Positions 12,632-63,112 of a stretch of 64,000 bases of DNA are shown piece by piece. The stretch is from Ruditapes philippinarum. Lineage: Eukaryota. The notes beneath the pieces are model-generated. The model was not told where the DNA came from. It was given only the letters and a program-made list of their open reading frames with translations, and made no database searches. The number at the start of each line of letters is the position of its first letter. Within the stretch, counting starts at the first letter, position 1. The stretch is taken from NCBI RefSeq assembly GCF_026571515.1, contig NW_026859228.1, positions 124,001 to 188,000 on the forward strand, given 5' to 3'. A program made the translations under genes and the position numbers.

Positions 12632-12706
12632 AAGAGTGCATTCCCCTTGTTTTTAAACTTCCGCGTTCCAAAGTTCAATGTTTTGCTTGTTGATCAGAAG
12701 GTAAGA
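12632..12706 (+). promoter_or_regulatory. Putative promoter / non-coding exon 1 of TRIM-like copy 1 (donor GT at 12701)
   Basis: ACTTCCGCGTTCCA at 12657-12670 and AG|GTAAG. The module recurs upstream of every paralogue. Confidence 0.65.
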
Positions 12707-12845
12707 CATTTTATAATATTAATATCATACTTACAATGAAATCATATTTCAAACGTTTGTTAACAAGGTGAATTTAAGTACATCATATTGTTGTGTTTTT
12801 ACGTTTTTTAAGGATAAATATGAATATTGATAGATTTCACAACAT

Positions 12846-12855
12846 GTCACGTGAC
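12846..12855. promoter_or_regulatory. Palindromic E-box GTCACGTGAC (CLEAR/USF/MiT-TFE type), intron 1 of unit 1
   Basis: Positionally conserved in units 3 (34250), 4 (38757), 5 (46831, TCACATGA) and 6 (63103); degenerate in unit 2. Confidence 0.55.
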
Positions 12856-13041
12856 TTAAGTACATGGTTGCTAAGACGAACTGGTGCAAAAAGATAAAAA
12901 TGTCTAATTTTAAAATTTTGTCAATACAGTTAACATTAGTTTATAATACCTTTGTGTCCGAAAGGTAGTTATTTGACATACAGTGACTATTTGTTGTGTT
13001 TGCTTTTGTTGCATGAGGGGTTCTTATTTGTTTATTTTTTA

Positions 13042-15139
13042 TTATACCCCCAAAAACGATGTTTGGGGGGGGGGGGGGGGTATATAGGAGTCCACCTGGT
13101 GGTCGTCGGTCGGTTGGTTGGTCGGTCGGTCGGTCCAGCGGTCCGTTGCATTTTCCTTGTCCGGAGCATAGCTTGAAGACTAATCATACAATGGTCAAGA
13201 GCAATGAGAAGAAGTGCGGTGCATAAAAACCGTAACTCTATCTTGACAAATTACAGAGTTATTGCTCTTTGTTACTTTTCCTTGTTCGGAGCATAACTTG
13301 AAAACTACTGGTTGAAACTCGAAACAACTTCATACAATTGTCAAGCACAATAAGGGAAAGTGCAGTGCACAATAACCATAACTCTATCTAAAGTCATAAC
13401 AGAGTTATTGCCCTTTGTTATTTTTCCATTGCTTTCTTTTGTTCGGACTATAACTTGAAGACTAATAGTTGGAATTCAATATAACTTCATACAATGGTTA
13501 AGCACATTGAGAGGAAGTGCAGTGTAAAAGAACCATAACTCCATTTTGACTAATTACAGAGTTACTGCCCTTTGTTACTTTTCCTTGTCCGGAGCATAAC
13601 TTGAAAACTACTAGTTGAAACTCAAAACAACTTCATGCAATTGTCAAGCACAATAAGGGGAAGTGCAGTGCACAAGAACCATAACTCTATCTAAAGTAAT
13701 TACAGAGTTATTGCCCTTTGTTATTTTTCCATTGCTTTCTTTTGTCCGGACTCAAACTTAAAGACTAATTGTTGGAATTCAATATAACTTCATACAATGG
13801 TCAAGCACATTGAGAGGAAGTGCAGTGCATGAGAACCATAACTCCATTTTTACTAATTACAGAGTTATTGCCCTTTGTTACTTTTCCTTGTCCGGAGCAT
13901 AACTTGAAAACTACTGGTTGGAATTCAAAACAACTTAATACAATGGCCAAGCACAATAACGGGAAGTGCCATGCATAAGAACCATAACTCCATTTTGACT
14001 AATTACAGAGTTATTGCCCTTTGTTACTTTTCGATTGCTTTTTTTGCCCGGAGCATAACTTGAAGACTACTAGTTGGATTTCAATATAACTTCATACAAT
14101 GGTCAAGCACATTGAGAGGAAGTGCAATGCATGAGAACCATAACTCCATCTTGACTAATGACAGAGTTATTGCCCTTTGTTACTTTTCCTTGTCTGGAGC
14201 ATAACTTGAAAACTACTGGTTGGAATTCAATACAACTTCATGCAGTTGTCAAGCACATTAAGAGGAAATGCAGTGCATAAGAATTATAACTCCATTTTGA
14301 CAAATAACAGAGTTATTGCCCTTTGATACTTTTCCTTGTCTGGAGCATAACTTAAAACATACTGGTTGGAATTTAAAACAACTTCATACAATGGTCAAGC
14401 ACAATAAGAGAAAGTGCAGTGCACAAGAACCATAACTCCATTTTGACTAAATTACAGAGTTACTGCCCTTCGTTACTTTTCCTTGTCCAGAGCATAACTT
14501 GAAAAACTACTAGTTGGATTTAAACCTATTTCATACTATGGTCAAGTATATTGAGAGGAAGTGCAGTGCACAGAAAGCATAACTCTTTTTTTGACTAATT
14601 TAAAAGTTTTTGGCCTTTTTGTTACTTTTTATTGTCCAGTGCATAACTTTAAAAATTAATGGTTGGAATTCAATGAAACTTTATACAATGGTCAAGGGCA
14701 GTGAGATGAAGTGCAGTAACACAAGAACAATAACTCTATTTGGACTAATTACAGTTATTGCTTTTGTTACTTTTTGTCGCAGTGCATAACTTGAAAACTA
14801 GTAGTTGGAATTCAATACAACTTCATACAATGGTCAAGCGCAATGAGAGGAAGTGCAGTGTACAATAGCCATAACTCAATCTTCATTATTTATAGAGTTA
14901 TTGCCCTTTGTTCCTTTTCCTTGTCTTTCTGGACTTCTTACAGAGTAATCCAATAAAACTTCATCAATGGCCAACCACATTGAAAGGAAATGCAACATAC
15001 AAGAACCACAACTATCTTTAATTGCCCACAACCATAACTCTGTTTCAATTCTTTACAAGGTATTTTGTTACTAGTAACATCCTCATTTCCGAAGCAGTCT
15101 TGCAGGGGGTATTAATCACATTTAGTGATAGTTCTAGTT
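13042..15139 (+). mobile_element. Helentron-associated non-autonomous element (HINE/DINE-1-like) with an internal ~146-bp tandem array
   Basis: 5' ATACCCCC with a nearby inverted GGGGTAT, then a (GGTC)n microsatellite and about 12 tandem monomers. It ends with a 3' GGGGGTAT subTIR (15105), an ATCAC..GTGAT hairpin and CTAGTTT. The element is absent from the matching T-rich intron site in units 2 (about 26290) and 3 (about 34425). Confidence 0.85.
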
Positions 15140-16246: not shown

Positions 16247-16303
16247 TTAAATAAAATCAAAATGTAAATCATTATTTTGATGTAATATTCTTTTCAGGCA
16301 TAA

Positions 16304-18019
16304 ATGGAGGTCCCCGGGAAACTTGGCCATGAAGACACGACATTACTATGTCTCCCGTGTGATAGAGATGGTTTGAAGGAACCAGTTTATGGTTTTTGCC
16401 AGGACTGCCAGGAGCATCTATGTGAAACATGCTACAAACATCACAGACGTGCACGTCCATTAAGAAATCATGTCCTAATCGACAAAGAATCCATGCCAAA
16501 GACCCGGGCAATCGCATCTACAAAATCGGACGATACGGCAGATCTTTGCGAGAAACACCTTGATAAACCATTAGAATTCTATTGTAGAGATCACAAATTG
16601 GTAGCTTGTTATGTTTGTGTGACCCTGGAACACAAACAATGTAACGTGGATTACATTCCTGATGTTTCTGGAAACATATCTGACGAGATGACAGATATAT
16701 TAGAACAAATGGAATCGTTGATTACAAAATGTAAATGGAATGTAGAATATGTTAGCAAAGCTGCGCAAAATCTAGATCAGAGTCATTCTAAAGTTGTTGA
16801 AGATATCAAAGTCTTCAGGAAAGAAATAAATGAATGTTTGGATAGAATGGAAACCCAGATATTAAAAGAAGCTGACACAATTGTAAAAGGTGCAAAAAGT
16901 AAACAGGAAACCGTATTAAATGCTTGCTTAGAGATAACTGAAGAACTTGAATGTTCACATTCGTTGTTAATTGCATTAAGAGAAGAAAACAAGCAAAACA
17001 AGCTTTTCATTGAGATGAAAAACGCCGAAAAACGTCTATCGATATTGACAGATAAGGAAGTGCAAGTATCAGATGCAAATGCAACAATTAAATGTATCAA
17101 ATTTACAAGGAACACAAGCCTCTTAGATCGACTGCGGAATGACAATGAATTTGGAACATTGTTAACAGGTGTACAGCCGTCTTCAGATAAAACATTAAAT
17201 TTACAATATGATGATACACTAAACCTGAAGTATAAATCCGATAAGAAAGAATGTCACATCACTGGTATAGCTATGATTGCTCCTATGAAAATTATTGTTG
17301 CTGACAGTAACAACAACAGTATCAAAATGATTGACGTTGAGACAAGATCTGGTATAAAAGAGATAATTTTGTCTTCACGACCAGATGATGTTGTTACTAT
17401 TCCAGAAAAAAAAATAGCTGTGACTTTAACAAATGAAAAAATTATTCAGTTATTGTCTCATACTGAAGCAGAACTTTCATTAGATCGACGTATAGCTGTA
17501 GGAGAATATTGCAATGGTGTAGCTTATTGCCAGAATAAGTTTGTTGTATCTTGCTGGGATTCAAAGAAAATAATTATTATCAATCATGAAGGAGATATTC
17601 TCAATGTCCTTGGTTCTCCTGCTATGTTTTATGGACCAGTCAGAGTTTCGGTCAGCAATGATGAGAAGTTCATATATGTCTCAGATACGGATTTCAAAAA
17701 CAATAGCAAGGTTGTGAAAATTGATTGGAAAGGAAATGTTATCAACAAATTTGTAGACTCCAGATGTAAATCTCTCTTGGCTCTACACATGTTAGAAGAT
17801 GACACGGCACTAGTGTGTAACAGATACAGTAACACTGTCCTTAGACTGTCAAGCAGCTTAAAGAGATGTGACATCAGTGGACTAGAGAAAGAAAATATCT
17901 ATTTCCCAACAGCTGTAACATACTGTGATAGAGAACAAAAACTGTACGTTTGTTGTTCATCAGTGAAAGAAGACTGGCGGGCTGATATTGTGAAAGTATT
18001 CCAAATGTATTGGATCTAG
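16304..18019 (+). CDS. RING-less TRIM-like protein (B-box1, B-box2, coiled coil, NHL-like beta-propeller), copy 1, intact, 571 aa
   Basis: B-box1 CLPC..CQDCQEHLCETCYKHH..H and B-box2 CEKH..FYCRDH..ACYVC..EHKQC. A heptad-rich helical middle is followed by six blade-like repeats (e.g. ITGIA..IIVAD.NN.IK, CNGVAY..FVVS, GPVRV..FIYVSD, PTAVTY..KLYV). Acceptor TTTTCAG ends at 16297; AATAAA at about 18035. Confidence 0.93.
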   Translation: MEVPGKLGHEDTTLLCLPCDRDGLKEPVYGFCQDCQEHLCETCYKHHRRARPLRNHVLIDKESMPKTRAIASTKSDDTADLCEKHLDKPLEFYCRDHKLVACYVCVTLEHKQCNVDYIPDVSGNISDEMTDILEQMESLITKCKWNVEYVSKAAQNLDQSHSKVVEDIKVFRKEINECLDRMETQILKEADTIVKGAKSKQETVLNACLEITEELECSHSLLIALREENKQNKLFIEMKNAEKRLSILTDKEVQVSDANATIKCIKFTRNTSLLDRLRNDNEFGTLLTGVQPSSDKTLNLQYDDTLNLKYKSDKKECHITGIAMIAPMKIIVADSNNNSIKMIDVETRSGIKEIILSSRPDDVVTIPEKKIAVTLTNEKIIQLLSHTEAELSLDRRIAVGEYCNGVAYCQNKFVVSCWDSKKIIIINHEGDILNVLGSPAMFYGPVRVSVSNDEKFIYVSDTDFKNNSKVVKIDWKGNVINKFVDSRCKSLLALHMLEDDTALVCNRYSNTVLRLSSSLKRCDISGLEKENIYFPTAVTYCDREQKLYVCCSSVKEDWRADIVKVFQMYWI

Positions 18020-18214: not shown

Positions 18215-18520
18215 TCAGATACATGTTTGAGCAATAGTAAGAATGCTTTAAAATTGATTGTGAAGGGAATTGCATGAACGTTTTTGAAGAAACAGGATCT
18301 TTATGTCTATGGTACTATATGATCTATAACCATAAAAGATGAGATGATACCTGTGTGTTTCAAAGGCAGCGATACGTCTTGAAACCGCCTAGCAGCTTAA
18401 ACAGATATGGTATTATTATACTAGAGAAAGCGAATATTTATCATCCATAAGTTGCAACATTCTTTGACGAATAAATGAATGCTAGTATTGTTAAACTGTT
18501 TCCATTTCAAACGGATCTTC
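18215..18520 (+). pseudogene. Decayed duplicate of the TRIM-like 3' coding end (last propeller blades)
   Basis: AAAATTGATTGTGAAGGGAA..AACGTTTTTGAAGAAACAGGAT..GCAGCTTAAACAGAT..CTAGAGAAAGCGAATATTTATC aligns to about 50735-51035, with many stops and indels. Confidence 0.75.
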
Positions 18521-23392: not shown

Positions 23393-23467
23393 AAGAGTGC
23401 ATTCCCCTTGTTTTTAAACTTCCGTGTTCTAAAGTTCAAAAGTTTGCTTTTTGATTAGAAGGTAAGA
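23393..23467 (+). promoter_or_regulatory. Promoter / non-coding exon 1 module of copy 2 (donor GT at 23462)
   Basis: ACTTCCGTGTTCT at 23418 and AAG|GTAAG. The E-box is degenerate (GTCATGTAAC, 23607). Confidence 0.55.
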
Positions 23468-23795
23468 AATGTAATAATAATAATATCATATTTACAATAA
23501 ATCATATTTCAAACGTTTCTTAACAAGGTGAATTTAAGTACTTAATAGTGTTGTGTTTATTACATTCTTTTAGGATAAATATGTATATTGATAGATTTCA
23601 CAACATGTCATGTAACTTAAGTACACATTGTAAATAAACGAACGGGTGTGTTGTATAGTGGATGAACTGACTTTTACATTTTTATACTATTAGTGTATAT
23701 AACTGCTCTGATCAACTCGCACATTCAAACTCCCCAGACTGGGCTTTAAGACAAGTATTTATCATGAAAACTCAACAAGTAAAACCACTGATGTA

Positions 23796-27689: not shown

Positions 27690-29397
27690 ATGGAGGTCTC
27701 CGGGAAACTTGGTCACGACGACTCGACATTAGTATGTATCCCGTGTGATAGAGATGCTGTAAAGGAACCAGCTTATGGTTTTTGCCAGGACTGCCAGGAG
27801 CATCTATGTGAAACATGCTACAAACATCACAGACGTGCACGTCCATTACGAAATCATGTCCTCATTGACAAAGAATCCATGCCAAAGACCCGGGCAATTG
27901 CATCTTCAACATCGGACGATACGGTGGATCATTGCGAGAAACACCTTGATAAACCATTAGAATTCTATTGTAGAGATCACAAACTGGTGGCTTGTTATGT
28001 TTGTGTGACACTGGAACACAAACAGTGTAAGGTGAACTATATTCCTGATGTTTCTGAAAACATGTCTGATGAGATGACTGATGTATTAGAACAGTTGGAA
28101 TCGTTTATTAAAAGATGTAAATCGAAGGTAGAATATGTTAATAAAGCTGCGCGAAATCTAGACCAGAGTCATGCGAAAGTTGTTGAAGATATCAAAGTTT
28201 TCAGGAAAGAAATAAATGAATGTTTGGATAGAATGGAAAACCAAATATTCAAAGAAGCTGACTTAATGGTAAACAGTGAAAAAAGTAAAGAGGAAACCGT
28301 ATTAAATGCTTGCTTAGAGATAACTGAAGAACTTGAATGTTCACATTCGTTGTTAATTGCATTAAGAGAAGAAAACAAGCAAAACAAGCTTTTCATTGAG
28401 ATGAAAAACGCCGAAAAACGTCTACCGATATTGACAGATAAGGAAGTGCAAGTATTAGATGCAAATACAACAATCGAATGTATCCAATTTACAAGGAACA
28501 CGAGCCTCTTAGATCGGCTGAAGAACGAGATTGAATTTGGAACATTGTTAACATGTGTACAACCGTCACCAGATAAAACATTAAACTTACAATATGATCA
28601 TACACTAAACGTGAAGTTTAAATCCGATAAGAAACAATGCCATATCTTGGGTATAGCTATGATTGCTCCTATGAAAATAATTGTTGCTGACAATGCCAAC
28701 AACAGTATCAAAATGATAGACGTTGAGACAAAATCAGTTATAATAGAGACAATTTTGTCTTCACAGCCATATGATGTTATAGCTATTCCAGGAAATAAAC
28801 TAGCTGTGACTTTAACAAATGAAAAATGTATTCAGTTATTGTCTCATACTGAAGCAGAATTTTCATTAGATCGACGTATAGCTGTAGGAGAAAATTGCAG
28901 TGGTGTAGCTTATTGCCAGAATAAGTTTGTTGTCTCTTGCAGGGCATCAAAGAAAATAATTATTATCAATGATGAAGGAAATATTCTCAATGTCCTTGGT
29001 TCTCCTGCTATGTTTTATGGACCAGTCAGAGTTTCGGTCCGCAATGATGAGACGTTCCTATATGTTTCGGATACGGATTTTGAAAACAATAGCAAGGTTG
29101 TGAAAATTGATTGGGAAGGAAAACAAATTCGAAGACTCAAGATGTAAATCTCCTTTGGCCCTACAACTTTTAGAAGATAAAACGACACTCGTGTGTTACA
29201 GAGACAGTAACACTGTCCTGAGATTTTCGAACAGCTTAAAAAGATGTCATACTATTGGACTAGAGAAAGCAAATATTTATTCCCCAACAGCTGTAACATA
29301 CTGTGACAGAGAACAAAAACTGTACGTAAGTTGTTCATCAAAGAAAGAAAATTGGACGGCTGATATTGTTAAAGTATTCCGTGTGAATTGGATCTAG
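27690..29397 (+). pseudogene. TRIM-like copy 2, frameshifted by an 8-bp deletion at about 29122
   Basis: ORFs 27690-29147 and 29107-29397 join. Copy 1 reads GGAAA[TGTTATCA]ACAAA where copy 2 reads GGAAAACAAA. Length 1708 = 1716 - 8. Confidence 0.9.
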
Positions 29398-35917: not shown

Positions 35918-37633
35918 ATGGAGGTCCCCGGGAAACTTGGTCATGAAGACTCTACATTACTATGTCTTCCGTGTGATAGAGATGGTTTGAAGGAAACAGT
36001 TTATGGTTTTTGCCAGGATTGCCAGGAGCACCTATGTGAAACATGCTTCAAACATCACCGACGTGCACGTCCATTAAGAAATCATGTCCTCATTGACAAA
36101 GAGTCCATGCCAAAGACGCCGGCAATCGCACCTACAACATCGGACGATACGGCGGGTCATTGCGAGAAACACCTTGATAAACCATTAGAATTCTATTGTA
36201 GAGATCACAAACTAGTGGCTTGTTATGTTTGTGTGACTCTGGAACACAAACAGTGTGATGTGGACTATATTCCTGATGTTTCTGGAAACATGTCTGAAGA
36301 GATGACTGATATATTAGAACAAATGGAATCGTTGATTACAAAATGTAAATCGGATGTAGAATATGTAAGCAAAGCTGCGCAAAATCTAGATCTGAGTCAT
36401 GCGAAAGTTGTTGAAGATATCAAAGTTTTCAGGAAAGAAATAAATGAATGTTTGGATAGAATGGAAACCCAGATATTAAAAGAAACTGACACAACTGTAA
36501 AAAATGCGAAATGTAAACAGGAAACCGTATTAAATGCTTGCTTAGAGATAACTGAAGAACTTGAATGTTCACATTCGTTGTTAATTGCATTAAGAGAAGA
36601 AAACAAGCAAAACAAGCTTTTCATTGAGATGAAAAACGCCGAAAAACGTCTGTCGATATTGACAGATAAGGAAGTGCAAGTATCAGATGCAAATGAAACA
36701 ATCAAATGTATCCAATTTACAAGGAACACGAGCCTCTTAGATCGACTGAAGAATGAGAATGAATTTGGAAAATTGTTAACATGTGTACAACCGTCTTCAG
36801 ATAAAACATTAAATTTACAATATGATGATACACTAAACGTGAAGTATAAATCCGATAAGAAAGAATGTAACATCACCGGTATAGCTATGATTGCTCCTAT
36901 GAAAATTATTGTTGCTGACAATTACAACAACAGTATCAAAATGATTGATGTTGAGACAAAATCAGTTATAACAGAGACAATTTTGTCTTCTCAACCAAAT
37001 GATGTTATAACTATTCCAGGAAATAAACTAGCTGTGACTTTAACAAATGAAAAATGTATTCAGTTATTGTCTCATACTGAAGCAGAACTTTCATTAGATC
37101 GACGTATAGCTGTAGGAGAATATTGCAATGGTGTAGCTTATTGCCAGAATAAGTATGTTGTCTCTTGCTGGGCATCAAAGAAAATAATTATAATCAATCA
37201 TGAAGGTGATATTCTCAATGACCGTGGTTCTCTTGCTAGGTTTTATGGACCAGTCCGAGTTTCCGTCAGCAATGATGAAAAGTTCCTATATATTTCAGAT
37301 ACGGATTCCGAAAACAATGGCAAGGTTGTGCAAATTGATTGGGAAGGAAATGTTAAGAGCATTTCTAACGACTCGGAATGTAAAGTTCCTTTTGGTCTTC
37401 AAATGTTAGAAGATGACACGGCACTTGTGTGTTACGGAGACAGTAACACTATTCTGAGACTGTCAAGCAGCTTAAAATGATGTGACATTATTGGACTAGA
37501 GGTAGCAAATATTTATAGCCCAACAGCTGTATCATACTTTGACAGAGAACAAAAACTGTACGTAAGTTGTTCATCAATGAAAGGAAAATGGAAGGCTGAT
37601 ATTGTTAAAATATTCAATGTGTATTGGACCTAG
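35918..37633 (+). pseudogene. TRIM-like copy 3, premature TGA (from AGA) at 37478-37480
   Basis: 520-aa ORF. The frame continues in register to the homologous TAG at 37631-37633 (total 1716 nt, as in copy 1). The stop removes the last blade. Confidence 0.88.
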
Positions 37634-38100: not shown

Positions 38101-38583
38101 AAAAGCGGCTGCAACTAAAATATATATCCGAAATTTAGTTTTTCTTTCATTTCTTCTTTCTGCTTAAAAAAGTAGAAAAAAACTATTCCCGACCCGTACA
38201 TATAATTTTCGATCAGCACGACATTTTTGTTGTTTGTTTGCATGTTCGTGGGGATTTAAGTTATTTTCTTTGACCTTTTTCTGATTAGGTGGTCACTGTA
38301 CTCCTACTTGAATACTATTGAATTGCCCTTAGGATATGTTGTATTTTGTCTTTTGACGTCTTTTCTGTGATATGCAGGCTTTTCAACCTCTGTTCCCCTT
38401 TCAAAATTTCATTTTGTTGAGAAATAGCTTTTAACAATGCAAATAAAGTCCGGTACAGAGCTAATAATATAATGAAGATTGGATATAGATGATTAGTAAT
38501 ATAATTTTTTTTTTAATTAATTATTATTTTAAACCAAATCTATGAGATAATCATGTAAATCCAATGTTTGTTTAACAAGATTA

Positions 38584-38766
38584 ACTTCCGCGTTCCATAA
38601 GCAGATATTCCTAATATATTAGTTAATATTTAAGAATATTTATTAAACATTTCAAGAATAAAATTATAGCTACAACATAATTTATGCCTTCACGATTATT
38701 TTTTGTATATATTTTTGTTGTTATTCTTCTCTTACGCAACGTTTGGTCTTAAACAAGTCACGTGAT
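38584..38766 (+). promoter_or_regulatory. Promoter module of copy 4 (ETS-like motif and E-box kept, GTAAG donor missing)
   Basis: ACTTCCGCGTTCCA at 38584 and GTCACGTGAT at 38757. Compared with unit 6, the segment containing AAAGGTAAG is deleted. Confidence 0.5.
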
Positions 38767-40975: not shown

Positions 40976-42696
40976 ATGGAGGTTCCTGGTAAACAAGACG
41001 AAGAAGCTTCAAGAGCTGATGACACAACATTAATATGTCTCTCTTGTGATATTGATGGTTTAAAGGAACCAGCCTATGGCTTCTGTCAGGACTGCCAGGA
41101 GCACCTATGTGAAACATGCTATAAACATCACAGACGTGCACGTCCATTTAAAAACCATGAACTCATTGACAAAGAATCCATGCCAAATATCCGGGTAATT
41201 TCATCGGACGATACCGCAGATCTTTGCGCCAACCACCAAGATAAGCCATTAGAATTCTATTGCAGAGACCACAAATTGGTGGCTTGTTATGTGTGTGTTA
41301 CATTGGAACACAAACAGTGTAAAGTGGACTATATTCCTGATGTTTCTGGAAGCCTGTCTGATGAGTTTAATGATCTATTAAAACAAATGGAATCTTTAAT
41401 AACAAAATGTCAATCAAACATAGAAAATATTAGCAAAGCTGCCCAAAGTCTAGACCAGAGATATGCAAAATTTGTTAAAGATATAAGTGCCTTTAGGAAA
41501 AAATTGAATGAGTGTCTGGATCGAATGGAAACCGAAATAATTAATAAAGCCGAATCGTTTGTAAAGAATGCAAAAATTAAACAAAAAACCATAAAATCTG
41601 CTTGCTTAGATGTAACTGAAGAACTTGAATATTCACATTCGGTTGTAAGTAAATTAAGAGAAGATGCCAAGCACAACAAGCTTTTTATTGCGATGAAAAA
41701 TGTCGCAAAACGTCTGCCTTTACTGGAAGATAAAGAAAATTAGTATTAGATGAAAATACAATAGATGATTGTATCAAATTAACCCGGAACACAGATCTGA
41801 TTAATCAATTTGAATCTGAGAATGTGTATGGAATATTGTTTACAGGTGTACAACCTTCTCCAGATAGAACAATAAATATACAATATACGGATACGATTAA
41901 CATGAAGACCAAATCCGAAGAGAAACAATGTAACATCATGGGTATGGTTATGATTGCTCCTACAAGAATGATCGTTGCTGACAATACAAACTTCAAAATC
42001 AAACTAATTGACAATGAGAAATGTGTAGTCGTGACGGAGAATAAGATGTCCTCACAACCGGTTGATGTTATAATTCTTCCAGAAAATAAGCTTGCTGTGA
42101 CATTGGAAAGTGAAAAGTGTATTCAGATAATGTCTTATACTGATGTAGATCTTTCATCAGATCGACGTATAGATGTTAAAGAACTTTGCAACGGGATAGC
42201 TTATTGTCATTATAAGTTTGTTGTCACTTGCTGGTCATCTAAAAAAATAATCATTATCAATCTTGAAGGATGTATTCTCAAAGTTTTACGTTCTCCTGCT
42301 ATGTTTAATGGGCCTAGCAGAGTTTTGATCAGCAAGGATGAGAAGTTTCTATATGTAACAGACAGAGATTTGAGGTCTAACAGCAGTGTTATGAAAATTG
42401 ATTTGGAAGGAAATCTTATTAGCGTTTTTAAAGAGTCAGGATATGCTGTTCCTTATGGTCTGCAACAATTAGAAGACGAGACGATACTTGTGTGTTTTCA
42501 AGACAGAGGAACTGTCCTGAGACTAACAAGCAGCTTAAAGAGATGTGACATTATTGGACCAGAGAAGGAAAATATGTATCGCCCAAAAGCTATAACATAC
42601 TGTCACATATATCACAAACTTTATGTAAGTTGTTCATCAGAGAAAGGGAAACAAAACGCTGATATTGTGAAAATATTCAATGTTAAGTGGATCTGA
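40976..42696 (+). pseudogene. TRIM-like copy 4, frameshifted by a 1-bp deletion at about 41736-41739 (573 aa if restored)
   Basis: ORFs 40976-41743 and 41824-42696 are in different frames. Adding one base to GAAAA restores ..DKE(K)LVLDENTIDDCI, matching copy 5. Acceptor TTTTTTCAG lies 6 nt before the ATG. Confidence 0.82.
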
Positions 42697-46260: not shown

Positions 46261-46645
46261 ATCCCCACCCGTCTTCCATATATAGTTCTTATATTGCTTC
46301 CAACAATACATTTATATACTATTGCAGGTTTCAATTTACAATTTGATTGATATATTGATAAGCAATTGATTTCTTTATTTTATTCTAAAAGGGGTTGCAA
46401 CTAAAATGTATTCCAAGTTTAGTCAATTGTTATGATTTCTTCTCTTTGTCTATTTACAGTTGAAAACTAATCTTTGTTAACACTGTAAATGAGAAAAAAG
46501 CCTTTTTAATACAAATAAGGTTTGGTACAGAATGGCTCGAGATATACTAGTATAATAAAGATGGGATATATATGGACAGGAATAGTATTTGTTTTATTTG
46601 AATACAGATGTTGAGATAATCATGTAAATCTAATGTTAAGTTAAA

Positions 46646-46711
46646 AAGATGCACTCCCTCTGTTGACAAAATTAAACTTCCGCGTTTCATAAACTTTGTT
46701 TAAAGGTAAGA
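46646..46711 (+). promoter_or_regulatory. Promoter / non-coding exon 1 module of copy 5 (donor GT at 46706)
   Basis: ACTTCCGCGTTTCA at 46676, AAAG|GTAAG, and TCACATGA at 46831. Confidence 0.6.
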
Positions 46712-47881: not shown

Positions 47882-48237
47882 AGATCCTGTATGTTGTACT
47901 TGGGCTTGTATACCACATTTAAATGAAATTATATATATGTATATAATTATGCTTGTAAAACAATTTTCAAACATAGAAGAATATGTCAAATATGTTCTGC
48001 AAATATTTGTACATATTATATGTTATCATAAAAATATATGCATTCATTTTTTATTGATAAATTTGACTGAGACTTTATAAAAAATAATTTTTTATTACCT
48101 CCCTTTATTTACATGAAATGTTAAATTTGGTAATATCTTGATAAATAATGCTTTTTGGAACTTACAAAATTGATAAATCTTAATACGAGCATCATATTTA
48201 TGATACAAAACCATAAAAAATGTGTGCTACAAGATCT
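47882..48237. mobile_element. Kolobok-type MITE
   Basis: AGATCCTGTA...TACAAGATCT-ttaa, same family. Confidence 0.8.
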
Positions 48238-49320: not shown

Positions 49321-51036
49321 ATGGAGGTCCCAGGAAAACTAGGCATTGATGTCACAAAATTAGTATGTCTCCCGTGTGACATTGATGGTTTGCAGGAACC
49401 TGCTTATGGCTTCTGCCAAGACTGTCAAGAGCATCTATGTGAAACATGCTACAAACATCAAAGACGCGCACGTCCATTCAAAAACCATGCTCTCATTGAC
49501 AAAGACTCTATGCCAATGTCCCTGATAATGTTACCTAATATATCTGACAATAGAGCGAATCTTTGCGAGAAGCATCAAGATAAACCGCCAGAATTTTATT
49601 GCAACGATCACAAATCGGTGATGTGCTATGTCTGTGCTACACTAGAACACAAACAATGTAATGTGGACTATATACCTGATGTTTCGGAAAACATGTCTGT
49701 GGAGTTGAATGGTATATTACAACAAATGGAATCGTTGGTTATTAAATGTATATCCAACACAGAAAATATTAATAAAGCTACGCAAAATCTAGACCAGAGT
49801 CATGCAAAAGTGGTTGAAGATATCAAAGTATTGAGGAAAGAGAGAAATGAATGTTTGGATAGGATGGAAACAAAAATATTGGAGGAAGCTGATATAGTTG
49901 TCAAGAATGCAAAATATAAACAGGAAACCGTTAAAGCTACTTCCTTAGAGATTATGGAGGAACTCCAATGTTCATATTCGTCGTTAAATACATTAAAAGA
50001 AGAAAACAAGCAAAATACGCTTTTTATTGAGATGAAAAATGCCACAAAACGTCTGCAAATACTGACAGATAAGGAAAAGCAAGTAATAGAAGCAAATACA
50101 GCAGACGATTGTATCCAATTTACACGGAACCCAAGCCTAATAGACGGTCTTAAGACTCTGAATAACTATGGAATATTGTCAACAAGAGTACATCCGTCCT
50201 CTGATAGAGCATTAGATTTACAATATTCGCATACAGTAAATGTGAAATCTGCATCCGATAAAAAAGAGTGTAACATCACAGGTATGGTTATGATTGCTCC
50301 AAAGAAACTGATTGTTGCTGATTATAATAACAACAGCATAAAACTGATTGACGTTGAGAATGGTTCAATAATAATAGAAGCAAGGATGCCTTCCAAAACG
50401 TATGAAGCTATTAAACTTTTAGGAAATACGCTTGCTGTGACTTCGGTGGAGGAAAAGTGTATTCAGATATTGTCTTATAATGACACCGGACTTTCATTAC
50501 AACGACATATAACTGTCAGCGAAGCATGCAATGGGTTAGCTTATTGTCAAAATAAGTTTGTTTTTTCCAGCTGGAAAGTAGGGAAACTAAGCATTCTTAA
50601 CTTAGATGGAGATGTTCTTAATGTGTTTGGTTCTCCTAGTCTATTTCATGGGCCCCTCAGAGTGATATCCAGTAATGACGAGAAGTTCCTTTATGTATCA
50701 GATGCAATGAACGGCCAAAATCACAAGGTTATGAAAATTGACTTTGAAGGAAATGTTAAGAACGTTTTTGAAGAACCAGGATATGAATATCCTTACGGTC
50801 TGCAACAATTAGAAGATGACACGACATTAGTGACTTACAGAGGCAGTGATACTGTCCTTAGATTGTCGAGCAGTTTAAAAAGGTGTGAGATTGTTGGACT
50901 AGATAAATTAAATATTTATCAACCGAAAGCTTTAACATACTGTGACAGAGAACATAAATTGTACGTCAGTTGTTCAACCAAGAAAGGACAACTGAATGCT
51001 GATATTGTCAAAGTATTCAATCAGAAGTGGATATGA
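49321..51036 (+). CDS. RING-less TRIM-like protein (B-box1, B-box2, coiled coil, NHL-like beta-propeller), copy 5, intact, 571 aa
   Basis: Open 571-aa ORF colinear with copy 1. Acceptor TTTTTCAG lies 6 nt before the ATG. Confidence 0.93.
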   Translation: MEVPGKLGIDVTKLVCLPCDIDGLQEPAYGFCQDCQEHLCETCYKHQRRARPFKNHALIDKDSMPMSLIMLPNISDNRANLCEKHQDKPPEFYCNDHKSVMCYVCATLEHKQCNVDYIPDVSENMSVELNGILQQMESLVIKCISNTENINKATQNLDQSHAKVVEDIKVLRKERNECLDRMETKILEEADIVVKNAKYKQETVKATSLEIMEELQCSYSSLNTLKEENKQNTLFIEMKNATKRLQILTDKEKQVIEANTADDCIQFTRNPSLIDGLKTLNNYGILSTRVHPSSDRALDLQYSHTVNVKSASDKKECNITGMVMIAPKKLIVADYNNNSIKLIDVENGSIIIEARMPSKTYEAIKLLGNTLAVTSVEEKCIQILSYNDTGLSLQRHITVSEACNGLAYCQNKFVFSSWKVGKLSILNLDGDVLNVFGSPSLFHGPLRVISSNDEKFLYVSDAMNGQNHKVMKIDFEGNVKNVFEEPGYEYPYGLQQLEDDTTLVTYRGSDTVLRLSSSLKRCEIVGLDKLNIYQPKALTYCDREHKLYVSCSTKKGQLNADIVKVFNQKWI

Positions 51037-51485
51037 ACATTACAAAGAAAATGATGGATATGATAAAAGTTTCTTTACAAAATTGTTGTGTCTTCATTAT
51101 ATGAGAACTATACAATTGAAATATAAACATGCACACTTCGTAATATTTCAACTAATGCATATTTCTAATGCTGTCGTAACATTTGATCCATAATACATAA
51201 ATCTCATTTTAATTTCTACAAGAACGTTTCTTAGTGGACATACCGTATGTAACCATGTCCTCAAATCAAAGACGGTATCTAGATAGAATTGGCTAATGGC
51301 TCAGAGTAATTCCGGTTGTCCCGAACCGACGAAGGTAATCTGTTAAACTATTATGAAATATTAAATAATTCCGATCTTCAGTCGCATGTTTCCTACACAG
51401 TTGGGGCAACTGCTTCTAACAAAACCCATCTTTGTACGCTTTAAAACTAAGCAGTCTGATAAAGCCGTCAATGCTTATTATAAGG

Positions 51486-51915
51486 CTATTTCAGAAGCTT
51501 GTCGTAAATTGTGACTGAGCAGGTGCCACTCGAGGTAATGGATCGGAGACGTTCACTTATCCCGAAGGTGCGAAGGGCCAGAATAGCTGACAAGAAGTCA
51601 GTCTTGGTCCGGGACAAGCTTTTCATCAACAACCAGATGTACGCACAGACCACCAAAGTTGAACCACATGGCACAGCCTCAAAGGCAGGAGAGTGTATGA
51701 CTGGAATGTTCTGTCCTGAAATATTAAGGGTCTAAAAACTGTTAAAGTAATGTTGAATTATTAATTTTTGGATGTACACTTTTCCTCCACCGAAGTCACA
51801 GCAAGCGTATTTCCTAAAAGTTTAATAGCTTATGTTTCAATGTAAATAGATGTTTATCTGTTTATATCATATGTTTATGGGTGTAAAGCAGGAAGAGCCA
51901 CTATCCCCTCTATTT
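51486..51915 (+). mobile_element. LINE relic: ORF1 C-terminal fragment plus a short RT fragment
   Basis: TEQVPLEVMDRRRSLIP..AR...K..LVRDKLFINN resembles invertebrate LINE ORF1 C-termini. GVKQEEPLSPLF resembles the RT motif GV(R/K)QG..LSP.LF. Confidence 0.6.
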
Positions 51916-51928
51916 TATGGGGTTTTAT

Positions 51929-53614
51929 TTTTAGCTCACCTAAGCAAAACTAGCTCATTGCCAGCTATTGTCATTCCCCCTATATCCGTCATCTGGCATC
52001 TAGCGTCGTGTGTTATTATCAATTTCTTTCAACAACATATCATCTGAAACCAAGGACTGCACATTTACAACTTTACAGGAATGATTCTTAGATTGTCCCC
52101 TTTAAAAGTTATACAAATGGTCTGTTGCATAAGTTTTTCACAGAGTCTGAAAAAGAGTTTCAAATGCCAATTTAAAAAAAGTATCTTGTTTGAAAGAACA
52201 AAACCCAGAATTTTGATATTTGGTTCATGATTTTATCTGTAGGTCCTCTACCAAAGTTTGCCAAATTTTATTTTTTGTGTCAAATTGGACCCACCCCGGG
52301 AATCATAATTTTTCCTTTTATGTATATAGTAAGAATTGACAAAGGCTAGATATTAGGTATTTAGCATAAAAAATTGTGTTGTAGACCTCTACAAAGATTG
52401 TTCAATATAATCGTTGTGTCACAATTGGCACCGCTTCGGGGGTCAATAATTATCATTATGTATATATAGTAAAAACTTTTAAAATCTATATAGTAAACAC
52501 TTTAAAATCTTCTTTTCTGAAAGTACAAGACCCAGAGCTTTGATATTTAATATATATCATCTAAAGATTATCTCCCAAATTTGTTCAAATTTTGCCCATA
52601 GTGTCATAATTGACCCTATCCCGAGGGGTCAGAAGTTTTCTTTTAATGTAAAAACTTAAAGAATTTTCTTCTCTGAGAGCATAAAACATCGTTTTCAATG
52701 TTGTTAGAATTTTGTCTCTAGTGTCAAAATTGGCCAAACCCGGTGGCCATATGCTTTCCTTATATGTATATAGTAAGAAAATAAGAAATATCTTCTCTGA
52801 AATGACAAAGGCAAAAGGTTAAATAATTGGCGTGACCTTTTCTAAGTTTGATCAAATAATGGCCTTTGAGTCATATTGGCCCTGCCCCGTTGGCATAGAT
52901 TTTTATTACAAACATATAAAAATAATGGGACACCTTTCCTCTGAAGCGTCAAGGGCTGGAGCTTAGATATTTGGCATGAAACATTGTGAACCTCCACAAA
53001 GATTGTTCAATTTATTGCCCTAAGTACTATTTAAGCATTTCTCTAGGGGTCAAGATCATTCTTTATATACATTTACCAAAAACTAAAAATAATGTTTTCT
53101 GAAAAGGATAAAGCTTTATAGAGCTTAAAATATGACATGAAACATTGTCTTGTGGACCTGTATTAAGATTGTTTAAGTAAATGCCTTTGCCTTTAGTGTA
53201 GAACTATGAAATTTAGACCATGCGCACAGTTCGAGATGTTAAATTGAACTTGGATATAACTGACCTAAATTTTGACAAGTGATGTTCTTTCTTGTCCTTT
53301 GATGTTGATTTTTTAAAATTGGCTTTTTTGGCTTTTTTATACACAGCCATGACATTTTGACACAATGTGTGCACAATTCCAGGAGTAGAACTGAAATTAG
53401 ATATCAAATTACCTTATCATTGACCTACTTTCTTATATTTGGTGTACAGCAATGAAATTATGACCATGTAAATAGTATTATTAAGAAATATATTTGTCAT
53501 GAAGTTTGGTCTAGTGACCAACATCGTTCAATTTCTTGTAATAAAAACTAGTTTTGAATGCTTTTACATAACAGTATAACCTCAGGTGAGCGCTTGAGGC
53601 CAATTGCCCTTATT
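51929..53614 (+). mobile_element. HINE-type element with degenerate internal tandem repeats
   Basis: 5' TTAGCTCACCT and 3' AGGTGAGCG subTIR followed by a GGC..GCC hairpin. Internal AGAGCTTTGATATTTGG..CCTCTACCAAAG..TTCAAAT..TGTCAAATTGG..CCCCGGGG repeats. Confidence 0.7.
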
Positions 53615-56385: not shown

Positions 56386-57243
56386 TTTATACCCCCACAA
56401 ACGAAGGTAAATAGGAGTTAGCTTGTAGTTCGGTTCATCGGTCTGTCCACTTCATTGTTTCCCTACGATAACTAGAGTCTGGAATGGACAGTGTAATCAA
56501 ATTTAGTTTATATCAACCTTATGCGGATACCCCTATTGATTTGCTTTTGAACCCCCTGGGGTCAAGGTCTATGTCACTGTAACTTAGAAATAGGAAAATG
56601 GCTTCCGGACAATAACTAGAGTTAGTAATGAAATTTTTGATAGAAACTTGCGGTATAAAGCAAGTTTATATAAAGGCCCCAGTTGGGGTTGCGTCTTTCC
56701 CTTTGGTCAAGGGCACTGTAACTAAAAAATAGAAAAATGGTTTCTGGACAATAAAGAAAGGTTACGAATTATATTTTGTAATAAAACTTGGTAAAAAGCA
56801 AGCTTATATGAAGACCCTGGTATGGGTTGCTTCTGGACTCCTTTTGGTCAATGTCACTGTTACTTAAATTAGAAAAAAAATGGTTTCTGGATGATAACTA
56901 AAGTTGACAATGAGATATTGTAATCAAACTTGGTATAAAGCAAGCTTATATGAAGACCCTGGATGGAATTGCTCCCTACGTCAATGTTACTGTTACTAAA
57001 AATAGGAAAATTGCTACTGGAGGAAATGAGCTATTGTAACGAAACTTAGCATTTAGTTCGGTGGGACCCCTAGGACAAGGTACTCAAAATAGAAAAATAA
57101 TTTCTGGAAGATATGCAATTAAGTGTATTAATTATTACACAGTACACAGACAAAACATAAATTATAAGTCGATTTCAAAATTTGCTCCAGAAAGTTAAAG
57201 TTACTGGTGGGAATATGGATCAGCTTTAGTGATATCTCTAGTT
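56386..57243 (+). mobile_element. HINE-type element with ~145-bp internal repeats
   Basis: TTTATACCCCCACAAACG head and GATCAGCTTTAGTGATATCTCTAGTTT tail, both like 13042-15139. Repeats read GTCACTGT.AC.TA.AAATAG.AAAATGG.TTC.GGA.AATAACTA. Confidence 0.7.
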
Positions 57244-59744: not shown

Positions 59745-61608
59745 TTAAGGAATATGATTAGTTCAATAACCTTTTTTGTTTTCTTTATAATAACGCCCTC
59801 TTTCCCTCCGCCAGTGCTTTGCCCTTGTGCCCATTCCTGTATTTTAGTGTCCTATCGGGTACCATGCCGGTGGTCCTTTGTGGCTGGATTGTGTTGAGGG
59901 TGCGTTCATTGAATACCACTCTTCCTTGTTGATTCTTGTTTTCATATTTTACGAGTTTCAATCTGATATATTTTTCATAACCTTGGTTGATAAGTGATTT
60001 TTTTTTATTGTCATTGAATTACGTGTAAATGTGACATGAATGATTGATTTTATGATATGAACGATTAAGACAGAAATAATCGAACGATAGGTTTGAAAGG
60101 TTATATAAAAACATGCTAGAAGGAACAAAACGTGTGATAATGCGTTGGCAGCCTTGGAGATAAACATAGACAGCCGGTTTAATGTAAAGTTTTTTTTAAG
60201 TTTTTTTTAACTTACAATGCATGTACAGGTTGCCAAACATTTTAGTTTTTACACAATGATTTATTTTTTAAGTATGTTTGAGTAAATATTGTAAAATGCG
60301 ATACAGTCCTAACTCTCAGCTTAAGCTTCTTAGTGTAATAAATAAAGCTGTTATAAAGTGGTTAGATTTTAATTTACTGCTTTTCTTGTAAATATGCACA
60401 ATGTTTTGAATTAATATCATCAAATTCTGTTAGTGCTTTATGTTTATATAAAAGCTAATATCTACCTTTAAACACTAGTTTTTACCATGGTTATTGTGGA
60501 TGTTGATAAATATTTTTCAATAACACTTTCTAAAATAAAACAAATACTTCATTCACTTAAATACAAAAAATGTCTTAGTTATTTGAAATATATAATATTT
60601 AAATCTTTGTATATACCAAAGATTATTTTCGGACATTGTTGTTTGACAGAACGAGAATTTTTACTGGCCCTCGGTCAGGCGCAAATTTCAAACTCTGGGT
60701 CATGGAAAACGTAGAGGACCACACTATAATATTTTCTAATGTGCAAAATTTATCAGCAACGTGCATTTCGCTCACACACTCTATAGTAGACTGCAGTTTG
60801 TTCAGTTGAAGATACATATTTTGTTTTTTCATAAACATGTGCAAATATCTTTAAGCGTTGACTTTTCTCATAGTCCTTTCTATTCAAATATGACATGAAA
60901 TAAATATGAATTCAAAGATAATCAATAGTGTTCGACCCGTACTTTACTTCAGTGGTGTTATATTTTTCGTTATATTTTTCTGGTCTTTCGGGATCATTGA
61001 TTCCAACACATTTAAGTGTTGAAAATTGAGTAAAAATTTTCTTTTTGTGTGTGGGGGCGGGGGTTTTAAGTTACCTTAAAACGCTCAGTTCAAACTATAT
61101 CTTGACCCGTGAACAAGCATTAATTATTCAAGAAGTTAAAATCGTAAAGTTCAAAACGTCATGTCACCAACTTGAAATCGTGAATTCGTGAATTCATTAT
61201 GTTGTGATCGTGAACCATAGAAGTCGAAAAGATGAAATTAAGATCTCATAAAGTTGAATGTATCAACCTGTATTTCGTGCATACGTTCTTATATTGCTTT
61301 CAACACTGTTGCACGTCTACATTTTTCATTTCAATTAATATAATTATATCTATAAGCGATTTATTTCTTTAAATAACTGTTAAAAGGGTTAAAACTACAC
61401 TACATTCCAAATTCAGTAAATCGTCACGATTCTTTCTCTTAAATGTGTAGTTGTATTACGTAGAAAACTTTAACACTGTATTTGACAGTGCACATATGGT
61501 TTGGTACAGATCTACTCTCGATGTAAAAGAATAAATAAAGATCGAATATACATGTATATGGACAATCATTGAAATATATTTTATATGAAAAATAATTTTC
61601 CTAACGTA

Positions 61609-62854
61609 CGAGGGTTGTTCAAAAAAACTAATAGGATGAAGACTCTTGAGTCTTCATATTCCATTAATTTGATAATATTTTCATATGTACGACAATCGTT
61701 GTTTGAATTACTGTTCCCTGTGATATTGAATAACCATGGTAACACGCACCTGGCGCAGCGCATCAGAAAGATTTTGATATACATGTAGTTTATTCATACG
61801 TTGTTGTATGTTTTTCCATATATTCCACCAATACGTTTAATCATATTTAAGGAAATTATGTCCAAATTTAATGTCATTCAGACAAGAAATAAAATAGCTA
61901 AATGATCATCAAGTTTTAAACAACAGTGGTCATAGCGTTAGCCTAAACGTTCGTTGAAAAACGGAACATTTGCGACCGTTGTATCTTGCTTACAATTAGG
62001 CCATACTTCTTCAGCTACATACGAAAAGATTTAATTTACACAGAACAATTATTAGGCTATTAGGGCACCCGATCTTAGCTGGCACAAGCAGTTCAAAGAC
62101 GGTGAATACGAGATCACATGCAGGAAAAGGCGAGAATGAAAGCGGAAAATTGACAAAACGTTAGTGATGCCATTTGCGATTGCGCTATAATAGGATCGAC
62201 TGTAAACAGTCTGCAAAATGTCAGACATGTCCGATGTCTTCCTCGGGTTCTGACCAAATGGTTGAATATAAGAAATTTGTTTTCAAAACTATTTAAAATA
62301 CAAGATATACGTGTTATATTTGAATAAATATGATAATGATACACAGTAATTATTAGTATCATTTTAAATGATTTAGTTTAATGAATAATAGCTTGTGCTC
62401 AGTACAAGAGAACTCTTTTCAATTGGATTTTTTCATTCACTGTACATAATCATATTGTTGTAAGAAAAAGCCGAGATTAGCCGGCCACCGGGTAATTGTT
62501 TCGTAGAGAGGAACGAGAATGTGATTGCTTTCTTTTTCGCCGAGGCCTGGATATAGGTACATGATTCGGACACCTAGAACACTGAGGAGAATACTTTCAG
62601 AAAGAATAAAGTTTGTTATATTTTGAATTGATTATGCGACGTCTTAAACGTCATTTAATTTATTGTTAGCGTGTGCTGGGTCGTGTTCCCCTTAATTGTC
62701 ATTGGTAGGTTTAACAGAATTGTTGTGTTTTGTGTTTTTTTCACTGTATGTAGAGAACATGTTTTGATATTTGTTTTATGTAAAATTGTGTACGGAAATT
62801 AAAAACAATGTGAAAAGTAGAGCAGCAGACCTATTACTTTTTGAACAACCCTCG
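61609..62854. mobile_element. Mariner-type non-autonomous transposon
   Basis: ta-CGAGGGTTGTTCAAAAA..TAATAGG ... CCTATTACTTTTTGAACAACCCTCG-ta; 1246 bp with no transposase ORF. Confidence 0.85.
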
Positions 62855-62882
62855 TATTTGAGATAATCATGTTAAGTATAAC

Positions 62883-63112
62883 AAGACTGCACTCATCTTC
62901 AGGCAAACTTCCGCGTTCCATAGGCAGATATATTGCTAATTGATTAAAAGGTAAGATATTTCTATGTTCAATATTTAAGTATAATATCTTGAATATAACG
63001 TATGCTGTTGTGATAATTTTAGTATATTCATGTATTCTTGCTTTTTGTTTTTGTTGATTTGTTTGTTCTTAAAGGTAAAAGGTATACCAAAAGATTTTAC
63101 AAGTCACGTGAC
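62883..63112 (+). promoter_or_regulatory. Sixth promoter / non-coding exon 1 module (donor GT at 62951); its coding exon is not in the window
   Basis: ACTTCCGCGTTCCA at 62907, AAAG|GTAAG, and GTCACGTGAC at 63103. The flanks align with units 4 and 5. Confidence 0.65.

What the first reader, a model, noticed from the sequence alone, without database searches (positions are those of the whole stretch)
12632..63112. Tandem array of RING-less B-box/coiled-coil/propeller genes behaving like a diversifying receptor locus
Seen: at least five single-coding-exon paralogues plus a sixth 5' module, with one shared regulatory layout, mosaic sequence exchange, variable propeller loops and 3 of 5 copies disrupted. 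Known: TRIM-NHL proteins use the propeller for ligand or RNA binding, and TRIM-like families are expanded in bivalves. Birth-and-death arrays of this kind are typical of innate-immune recognition genes. Inference: this is a rapidly evolving cytosolic sensor or adaptor repertoire with a constant oligomerisation scaffold and a variable binding head. Lacking a RING, it would have to partner with another E3 or act as a cargo receptor.
Basis: partly seen in the sequence, partly recalled or inferred. Interest (0 to 1): 0.8.

Follow-up and report, generated by a model that had tools for sequence, protein, structure and literature searches.

The report
Clam array of RING-less TRIM-like genes
A Manila clam carries a row of duplicated genes for TRIM-like proteins that lack the usual ubiquitin-ligase finger, keep a shared dimerising stalk and vary the binding face of their propeller head, a pattern that suggests but does not prove an immune sensor repertoire.

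Summary
Observation confirmed. There are five same-strand copies, each with one coding exon (B-box1, B-box2, coiled coil, six-bladed NHL-type propeller; no RING, no filamin), and six matching 5' modules. Best hits are Ruditapes philippinarum. Three copies are broken in the window, but copy 4 has an open frame in two other runs. The array is one cluster of a very large mollusc family (1,416 clusters at 50% identity with E<=1e-30). Top-face propeller loops evolve twice as fast as bottom loops (omega 0.80 vs 0.40, p=7e-5; B-boxes 0.26), but not above 1, and the site-model signal rests on one codon. Exchange is supported: a 133-nt block is identical in copies 1-3, and affinity to other paralogues switches at about residue 225 (shared stalk, different head). 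A predicted antiparallel dimer fits TRIM architecture, possibly from memory. New here: a disordered N-terminal motif M-[EAD]-V-[SP]-G-[RK] is kept in 61 of 109 distant relatives, a candidate docking site that replaces the RING. Ligand, partner and immune induction are untested. Best reading: finTRIM-like cytosolic sensor/adaptor repertoire (0.5).

The parts
12632..12700 (+). Copy 1 putative non-coding first exon/promoter (motif AAACTTCCGCGTTCC at 12655; donor GT at 12701); 5' end not mapped
   Evidence: splicing inferred from signals only
12846..12855 (+). Conserved intronic GTCACGTGAC E-box, 145 nt after the donor; also at 34250, 38757 (GTCACGTGAT) and 63103, degenerate at 23607 and about 46830
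16304..18019 (+). Copy 1 CDS, intact, 571 aa: N-terminal motif 1-6, B-box1 16-57, B-box2 79-113, coiled coil 126-279, six-bladed propeller 298-570
16905..17037 (+). 133-nt block (CDS nt 602-734, codons 201-245) identical in copies 1, 2 and 3; probable conversion tract
   Evidence: 0 of 5000 codon shuffles reach this length
18247..18501 (+). Degenerate relic of blade 5-6 coding sequence after the stop; counterparts at 29699-29958 and 37879-38103
23416..23461 (+). Copy 2 5' module (donor at 23462)
27690..29397 (+). Copy 2 CDS, 8-bp deletion after 29121 in blade 4; open frame of 485 aa
34054..34103 (+). Copy 3 5' module (donor at 34104)
35918..37633 (+). Copy 3 CDS, premature TGA at 37478-37480 (520 aa; blade 6 lost)
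38544..38766 (+). Copy 4 5' module: GAGATAATC at 38544, core motif at 38582, E-box at 38757; canonical donor absent
40976..42696 (+). Copy 4 CDS, 1-bp deletion at 41735-41738 in the window; frame open in contigs of runs X1 and X2
46613..46705 (+). Copy 5 5' module (GAGATAATC at 46613, core motif at 46674, donor at 46706)
49321..51036 (+). Copy 5 CDS, intact, 571 aa; contigs of X1 and X2 cover most of it and its 3' flank to 51776
62860..63112 (+). Sixth 5' module (GAGATAATC at 62860, core motif at 62905, donor at 62951, E-box at 63103); its CDS would lie beyond the window

Best explanation
A tandem cluster of RING-less TRIM-like genes from a very large mollusc family, working as a repertoire of cytosolic binders in host defence or stress surveillance. 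Shown by sequence: architecture B1-B2-CC-NHL, no RING, duplication with loss, exchange between copies, faster change on the propeller top face. Predicted: an antiparallel coiled-coil dimer, which in TRIMs presents two heads. Inferred: each head binds a different protein, peptide or glycan surface (not RNA in the Brat/LIN-41 manner); the B-boxes allow higher-order assembly; ubiquitin or autophagy machinery is recruited in trans, by a RING-bearing TRIM or through the conserved disordered N-terminal V-x-G-[KR] motif. New specificities arise by duplication, by loop substitution and by recombination near residue 225, which keeps the stalk and changes the head.
For: Domains and fold: Pfam B-box and NHL; AlphaFold pLDDT 91.8; best solved match TRIM2 NHL, Z 31.9, rmsd 2.1 A, 255 residues aligned. 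Dimer: score 0.66 vs best control 0.00, runs agree in >=88% of contacts, pLDDT >=79; the mark was reached by 17 of 29 eukaryotic homodimers (animals 7 of 16) and 0 of 30 monomers; TRIM dimers are solved, so this may be from memory. Selection: omega B-box 0.26, CC 0.35, strands 0.43, bottom loops 0.40, top loops 0.80; top vs bottom p=7e-5; 0.79 vs 0.37, p=4e-4 with c1, c4, c5 only; entropy top>bottom in 33 paralogues, p=1e-5. Exchange: (affinity switch at aa 221-236; p<=0.008 in 5 of 6 triplets, 0.06 in the sixth). Turnover: 3 of 5 copies broken here, 4 of 8 further paralogues on a contig of the same length are short; c2/c3 terminal omega 0.55, below 1 (p=0.003), so they were under constraint for most of their history. 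Top-face net charge is -1 to +2 in the five copies and -14 to +6 in relatives, without conserved Arg. Oyster transcripts annotated as TRIMs track parasite tolerance, mode of action unknown (PMC9892467, passages).
Against: Top-loop omega is not above 1 (estimate 0.80; test against 1 p=0.07). The M1a/M2a signal vanishes without codon 534 (p=0.99). Top loops are longer (75 vs 45 residues) and may simply be freer. No top/bottom difference among 94 distant relatives (p=0.23; probably saturated). c5 vs P0001 differences are not head-biased. Synonymous-only clustering among c1-c3 is not significant (p=0.059), MaxChi is significant for 1 of 3 pairs, and none of the 7 pairs with c4 or c5 shows a tract. 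The residue-225 switch rests on proteins only, so lineage-specific rate change can mimic it. Expression seen is low (contig depth 2.5-8.7), tissue and treatment unknown. The oyster TRIMs of PMC9892467 were not shown to belong to this family.
Confidence: 0.5

Rival explanations
1. Mostly neutral birth-and-death. The proteins are redundant adaptors for a host target; copy number drifts by unequal crossing-over in a repeat-rich region, and the top loops vary because constraint is relaxed, not because of pathogens.
For: No partition has omega above 1; M1a places 39% of sites at omega=1 and the extra class rests on one codon; low expression; many lesions; shared transposon-like repeats in the flanks and introns.
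Against: Promoter motifs stay intact in modules otherwise 50-66% identical; c2 and c3 kept omega<1; stalk-kept, head-changed mosaics; family size.
Confidence: 0.25
2. RNA-binding regulators like Brat/NCL-1 or TRIM56, or sensors of foreign RNA, with varied sequence specificity.
For: Same domain order as Brat (domain order recalled; Brat listed as TRIM-like in PMC3503706); the fold matches Brat, LIN-41 and Mei-P26 NHL at Z 28-31; RNA-binding residues are poorly conserved even among true RNA-binding NHLs (PMC5908797, passages).
Against: RNA-binding NHLs have an electropositive top surface (PMC4015489). Here the net top-loop charge is near zero or negative, and the central top positions are hypervariable. 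This is a residue count, not a computed electrostatic surface.
Confidence: 0.13
3. Decoys or tuners of RING-bearing TRIMs: they heterodimerise with, or compete against, RING-B-CC-propeller relatives and damp their ligase output.
For: RING-bearing mollusc clusters with the same propeller fold exist; hetero-interaction is proposed for RING-less TRIMs (PMC2533329, passages); TRIM34 needs TRIM5 (PMC7179944, abstract).
Against: A pure decoy needs no fast-changing head and no family of over a thousand clusters; no heterodimer was tested.
Confidence: 0.1

Closest known systems
TRIM-NHL class VII / subfamily C (TRIM2, TRIM3, TRIM32, TRIM71, TRIM56)
   Same: Two B-boxes, coiled coil, six-bladed NHL-type propeller closed by an N-terminal strand; best structural match TRIM2 NHL, Z 31.9 at 18% identity
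   Different: No RING, no filamin domain, single coding exon, multi-copy and fast-evolving; 15-18% identity, so no orthology to a named TRIM. Labels such as 'TRIM71-like' or 'TRIM33-like' on relatives are source names
RING-less TRIM-like NHL proteins Brat and Wech
   Same: TRIM-like proteins with an NHL head, listed in subfamily C (PMC3503706); lack of RING recalled
   Different: They are few, conserved RNA-binding regulators with a basic top face; here the top face is variable and not basic
Teleost finTRIMs and the TRIM5/22/34 cluster
   Same: Clustered, lineage-specific expansion with near-constant N-terminal part and variable C-terminal binding domain (PMC2657112, abstract)
   Different: finTRIMs have a RING and a B30.2 head, are virus-induced and show strong positive selection; here no RING, NHL head, induction unknown, selection weak
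Bivalve B-box/TRIM-annotated expansions
   Same: A B-box orthogroup (OG708, 135 genes) is listed among bivalve expansions (PMC8382680, table passage); many TRIM-annotated transcripts in oyster disease studies (PMC9892467)
   Different: In the passages I saw, neither paper describes the RING-less architecture, the N-terminal motif or stalk/head mosaicism; identity with this family was not tested

Membership tests
TRIM (RBCC) strict | N-terminal RING finger | tested here: not met
   No RING pattern in six frames of the window; in-frame stop before ATG in 4 of 5 copies; 0 of 194 proteins by regex; 0 of 77 by Pfam (one family of one protein not shown)
TRIM (RBCC) strict / TRIM-like | One or two B-boxes | tested here: met
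   PF00643 above cut-off in all five copies; most Cys/His ligands invariant or >=90% conserved in 119 sequences
TRIM (RBCC) strict / TRIM-like | Coiled coil after B-box2 forming an antiparallel dimer | tested here: met
   Helices 126-227, 231-259, 271-279; predicted antiparallel dimer 0.66 vs 0.00 (prediction only, possibly from memory)
TRIM (RBCC) strict | E3 ubiquitin ligase activity | not testable with these tools
   Needs an in vitro assay; B-boxes may carry activity (speculation in PMC2533329)
TRIM-NHL class VII | Six-bladed NHL propeller at the C-terminus | tested here: met
   Model residues 298-570; the 11 best VIA-align rows are TRIM-NHL domains, Z 30.2-31.9; PF01436 above whole-protein cut-off in c1 only, not listed for c5
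TRIM-NHL class VII (TRIM2/3/71 type) | Filamin domain between coiled coil and NHL | tested here: not met
   Only 18 residues between helix 271-279 and strand 298; no filamin hit. TRIM32 also lacks it
RNA-binding NHL (Brat/LIN-41) | Electropositive top surface with conserved basic/aromatic residues | tested here: inconclusive
   Net top-loop charge -1 to +2 in the copies, positions hypervariable; residue count only, no electrostatics or binding assay
finTRIM/TRIM5-type restriction repertoire (works like) | Clustered lineage-specific expansion with turnover | tested here: met
   5 copies plus 8 on a contig of the same length; they fall in a clade (support 100, quick tree) without the 4 Mercenaria rows
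finTRIM/TRIM5-type restriction repertoire (works like) | Positive selection on the ligand-binding face | tested here: inconclusive
   Top-loop omega 0.80; site tests p=0.011-0.026, and M1a/M2a lost without codon 534; five sequences only
finTRIM/TRIM5-type restriction repertoire (works like) | Induction by infection or activity against a pathogen | not testable with these tools
   Runs are coded, without tissue or treatment

The most novel reading that the evidence does not exclude
Venerid clams and other molluscs have built a very large intracellular receptor repertoire on a RING-less TRIM-NHL chassis. A universal N-terminal linear motif, M-[EAD]-V-[SP]-G-[RK], plugs every member into one shared effector (an E3 ligase or autophagy adaptor), while recombination near the end of the coiled coil swaps propeller heads. 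This would be a substrate-receptor system like F-box proteins, but built from TRIMs and aimed at pathogens.
Probability: 0.22. Interest if true: 0.78.

Novelty: new variant of a known kind. Interest (0 to 1): 0.44.

Why it matters
Bivalve disease transcriptomes repeatedly list 'TRIM-like E3 ligases', yet none of the relatives scanned here has a RING, so that label may often mislead. The locus gives testable handles on a large, apparently undescribed family: a six-residue motif to use as bait, a defined variable face, a stalk/head breakpoint, and a frame lesion that differs between samples. If the motif recruits a common effector, it would explain how a clam can add receptors without adding ligase domains, and would matter for resistance breeding. 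If it does not, this is one ordinary cluster of a drifting multigene family.

Tried and rejected
No whole genome is held, so the full array, copy order and DNA of the other paralogues were unavailable; codon tests use five copies. The metagenome scan gave 1 distant locus (26% identity) of 172 stretches, of no use for codon tests. Rfam: no match at gathering score. The search for longer fused forms gave 2 unrelated-looking proteins among 4,864 candidates, weak evidence and no Rosetta-stone partner. Hidden upstream RING exon: rejected for the observed acceptor; an internal alternative acceptor was not tested. Conserved uORF: an upstream ATG in the inferred leader is seen only in c1 and c5, in different forms. 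The three different stops before the ATG differ by single transitions and may be chance. IAP-binding-motif idea (pattern recalled from memory): only 17 of the 99 motif-bearing proteins among 208 start M-A-V, and all five window copies start M-E-V, so rejected for this array. The N-terminal motif as a folded part of B-box1: residues 1-10 have mean pLDDT 47 with a 119-sequence alignment and are not named in the dimer interface. Runs X21 and X23 say nothing on expression: 27,261 of 27,549 and 501 of 528 laid reads fit only partly, and X21 depth on c4 equals that on non-coding bins. The c3 stop could not be checked in other samples (no row among those shown; 528 hidden), and c1 and c2 lay outside the stretch laid. 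Literature: 10 full-text searches listed no paper on this family as such. Passages of PMC7653742, PMC10514466, PMC12373286, PMC5549309, PMC9334734 and PMC8195603 did not describe it. The library lacks most subscription journals, and I read no supplements, where orthogroup tables may list the family.
Full report
What is there. The window is AT-rich eukaryotic DNA with five long + strand reading frames, about 74-87% alike in DNA. Copies 1 (16304-18019) and 5 (49321-51036) encode 571 aa. Copy 2 has an 8-bp deletion, copy 3 a premature TGA and copy 4 a 1-bp deletion. Every ATG lies 6 nt after a T-rich tract ending in CAG, and in 4 of 5 copies an in-frame stop (TAA, TGA, TAA, TAG) stands directly before it. 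Six 5' modules share AAACTTCCGCGTTCC (6 found, 0.72 expected), and five have an AAG|GTAAGA donor, which gives inferred introns of 1.8-4.2 kb. Modules 1, 4, 5 and 6 are only 50-66% identical, yet keep three islands: the core motif, TGAGATAATCATGT (copies 4-6) and GTCACGTGA about 145-152 nt into the intron; 9 of 3,000 random triples of regions share a comparable 9-mer. Reading these as ETS, GATA and E-box/CLEAR-like sites is recalled, not tested. No spliced junction was among the joints shown.

Identity. Of 47 hits, 28 are named Ruditapes philippinarum, 7 Mercenaria mercenaria, 3 are the window's own and 9 are unnamed. Eight further paralogues are recorded on a contig of the same length as the window's own proteins (337,378), 4 of them short. 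In a quick tree of 30 rows, the window copies and the seven same-contig rows included fall in one clade without the four Mercenaria rows; the careful tree did not finish. A profile of 37 sequences finds 1,416 clusters at 50% identity with E<=1e-30 and 12,100 with E<=0.001 (the weaker ones will include other B-box or NHL proteins). Atlas neighbours are mostly molluscan. The array is therefore one cluster of a very large family.

Protein. Pfam finds B-boxes and weak NHL repeats. AlphaFold gives two B-boxes, helices 126-227, 231-259 and 271-279, and a six-bladed propeller at 298-570 (pLDDT 91.8), best matched by TRIM2 NHL (Z 31.9, rmsd 2.1 A, 255 residues). There is no filamin domain and no RING: none in the window, 0 of 194 proteins by pattern, 0 of 77 by Pfam (77 picked from the 147 new representatives). 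RING-bearing mollusc clusters with the same head exist. Residues 1-290 fold as an antiparallel homodimer (score 0.66, best control 0.00, >=88% contact agreement, pLDDT >=79; the mark was reached by 17 of 29 eukaryotic dimers and 0 of 30 monomers). Like complexes are solved, so this shows likeness, not binding.

Selection. Top (d-a, b-c) and bottom (a-b, c-d) loops follow the convention in PMC4015489 (passages), with boundaries from the model's DSSP; two strand limits were set by hand, and I had seen the alignment first. My own codon-model code on five copies, breaks masked, gives omega 0.26 for the B-boxes, 0.35 coiled coil, 0.43 strands, 0.40 bottom loops and 0.80 top loops; top vs bottom p=7e-5, stable over three topologies and with c1, c4 and c5 alone (p=4e-4). 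Entropy is higher on top in 33 paralogues (p=1e-5; P0001 and three distant rows dropped) but not in 94 distant relatives (p=0.23). Site models give p=0.026, 0.011 and 0.017, driven by codons 534 (posterior 0.98) and 336 (0.71), both in top loops with multi-nucleotide changes. Without codon 534, M1a vs M2a gives p=0.99. So the binding face is freer or mixed, and positive selection is not established. Against a head-centred arms race, c5 and P0001 differ at 18 of 502 residues, 9 of them in the coiled coil, and ordinary TRIM-NHL paralogues also differ at the top opening (PMC9634614, passages).

Exchange. Copies 1-3 are identical over 133 nt (codons 201-245; 0 of 5,000 shuffles). Informative sites cluster (p=0.004; synonymous only p=0.059), and MaxChi finds a break at codon 419 for 1 of 3 pairs. 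No tract involves c4 or c5 (7 pairs). Against paralogues P0002 and P0003, copy 1 is 82-93% identical over residues 131-210 and 80-82% over 531-570, but 42-68% over 251-530, no closer than to c4 or c5. Affinity switches at residue 221-236 (p<=0.008 in 5 of 6 triplets, 0.06 in one). This fits a shared stalk with a replaced head; it rests on proteins only, so uneven rates are not excluded.

Variation between animals and expression. On 33600-52000, contigs of runs X1 and X2 (two studies, RNA by guess) cover c4 and c5 coding sequence and the c5 3' flank at depth 2.5-8.7, with zero depth in several intergenic and intronic bins, which fits low-level transcripts. Both carry the A missing from c4. The three X21 reads at that site do not show it, so the lesion is either a segregating null or an assembly error; three reads cannot decide. 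No relative above 90% identity to c1-c3 from another sample was found, only P0012 (84%) and P0009 (80%). This is compatible with haplotype or copy-number variation, but database coverage is thin. The terminal branches of c2 and c3 have omega 0.55, below 1 (p=0.003), so their lesions are probably recent.

An unnoted feature. The first six residues, M-[EAD]-V-[SP]-G-[RK], recur in 61 of 109 distant representatives that have B-box1 near the start (of 147 fetched; median 28% identity to the window copies), separated from B-box1 by an unalignable linker (first Cys at position 12-30; the pattern was drawn after seeing the data). Val3 and Gly5 are kept in 76% and 80% of 94 rows. The codons vary synonymously among the five copies, and the stretch is disordered in the model. 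That is the profile of a short linear docking motif at the place where a RING would be. Its partner is unknown.

Mechanism and verdict. Most likely (0.5) the genes encode dimeric cytosolic binders whose heads recognise different non-RNA surfaces and which recruit ligase or autophagy machinery in trans. Structure and evolutionary pattern are shown or predicted; ligand, partner and immune role are inferred by analogy with finTRIMs (PMC2657112, abstract) and from oyster TRIM-annotated transcripts linked to parasite tolerance (PMC9892467, passages). Rivals: relaxed drift (0.25), Brat-like RNA binding (0.13), decoys of RING-TRIMs (0.10). They are not TRIMs in the strict sense (RING absent) but TRIM-like subfamily-C relatives as described in PMC3503706 and PMC2533329 (passages). 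Ten searches of an open-access library found no paper on this family as such; subscription journals and supplements were not seen. Verdict: real, a new variant of a known kind; interest 0.44.

Noticed in passing
window 16304-16321 and the starts of the other copies; proteins P0048-P0194: Family-wide disordered N-terminal motif M-[EAD]-V-[SP]-G-[RK], in 61 of 109 distant relatives with a variable linker to B-box1; candidate docking motif.
   Followed up: partly
window 51775-51831: Perfect 57-bp inverted copy of copy-5 coding sequence (50405-50461) in its 3' flank. Contigs of X1 and X2 stop matching at 51776, so it seems absent in those samples; it could form a hairpin with the CDS if transcribed.
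   Followed up: partly
window 18247-18501, 29699-29958, 37879-38103: Decayed second copy of blade 5-6 coding sequence just after the stop of copies 1-3, about 66-75% identical to the CDSs and nearest to copy 4; relic of an older duplication.
   Followed up: partly
window 16301-16303, 27687-27689, 35915-35917, 49318-49320: In-frame stop directly before the ATG in three forms (TAA, TGA, TAA, TAG); may be chance, or selection against N-terminal extension, which would keep the motif at the very N-terminus.
   Followed up: partly
window 38582-38640: The copy-4 module has lost the GT donor shared by the other five, yet copy 4 is covered by contigs in X1 and X2; another donor may be used. One X2 contig has 16 letters before the copy-4 ATG that are not in the window.
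   Followed up: partly
window 13151-15020: About 10 copies of a 146-bp satellite-like repeat inserted in the inferred intron of copy 1; a 142-bp array lies at 56575-56959.
   Followed up: no
window 23786-24213 / 25531-25959; 3132-3374 / 6655-6897: 430-bp inverted pair (91%) in the inferred intron of copy 2, like the ends of a DNA transposon; two copies of a 243-bp palindromic MITE-like element upstream of the array.
   Followed up: no
window 43507-43800 (-): Decayed reverse-transcriptase fragment between copies 4 and 5 (RVT_1 E=0.0018, below the cut-off).
   Followed up: partly
window 11479-11825, 39911-40249, 47328-47681, 47878-48241: A 350-bp repeat (74-82% alike) near several copies, very deeply covered by reads; a possible substrate for unequal crossing-over.
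   Followed up: no
L001 577-3160: Distant relative (26%) in a metagenome contig, with B-box/coiled-coil and propeller parts in two frames about 740 bp apart, so some relatives may have an intron there.
   Followed up: no
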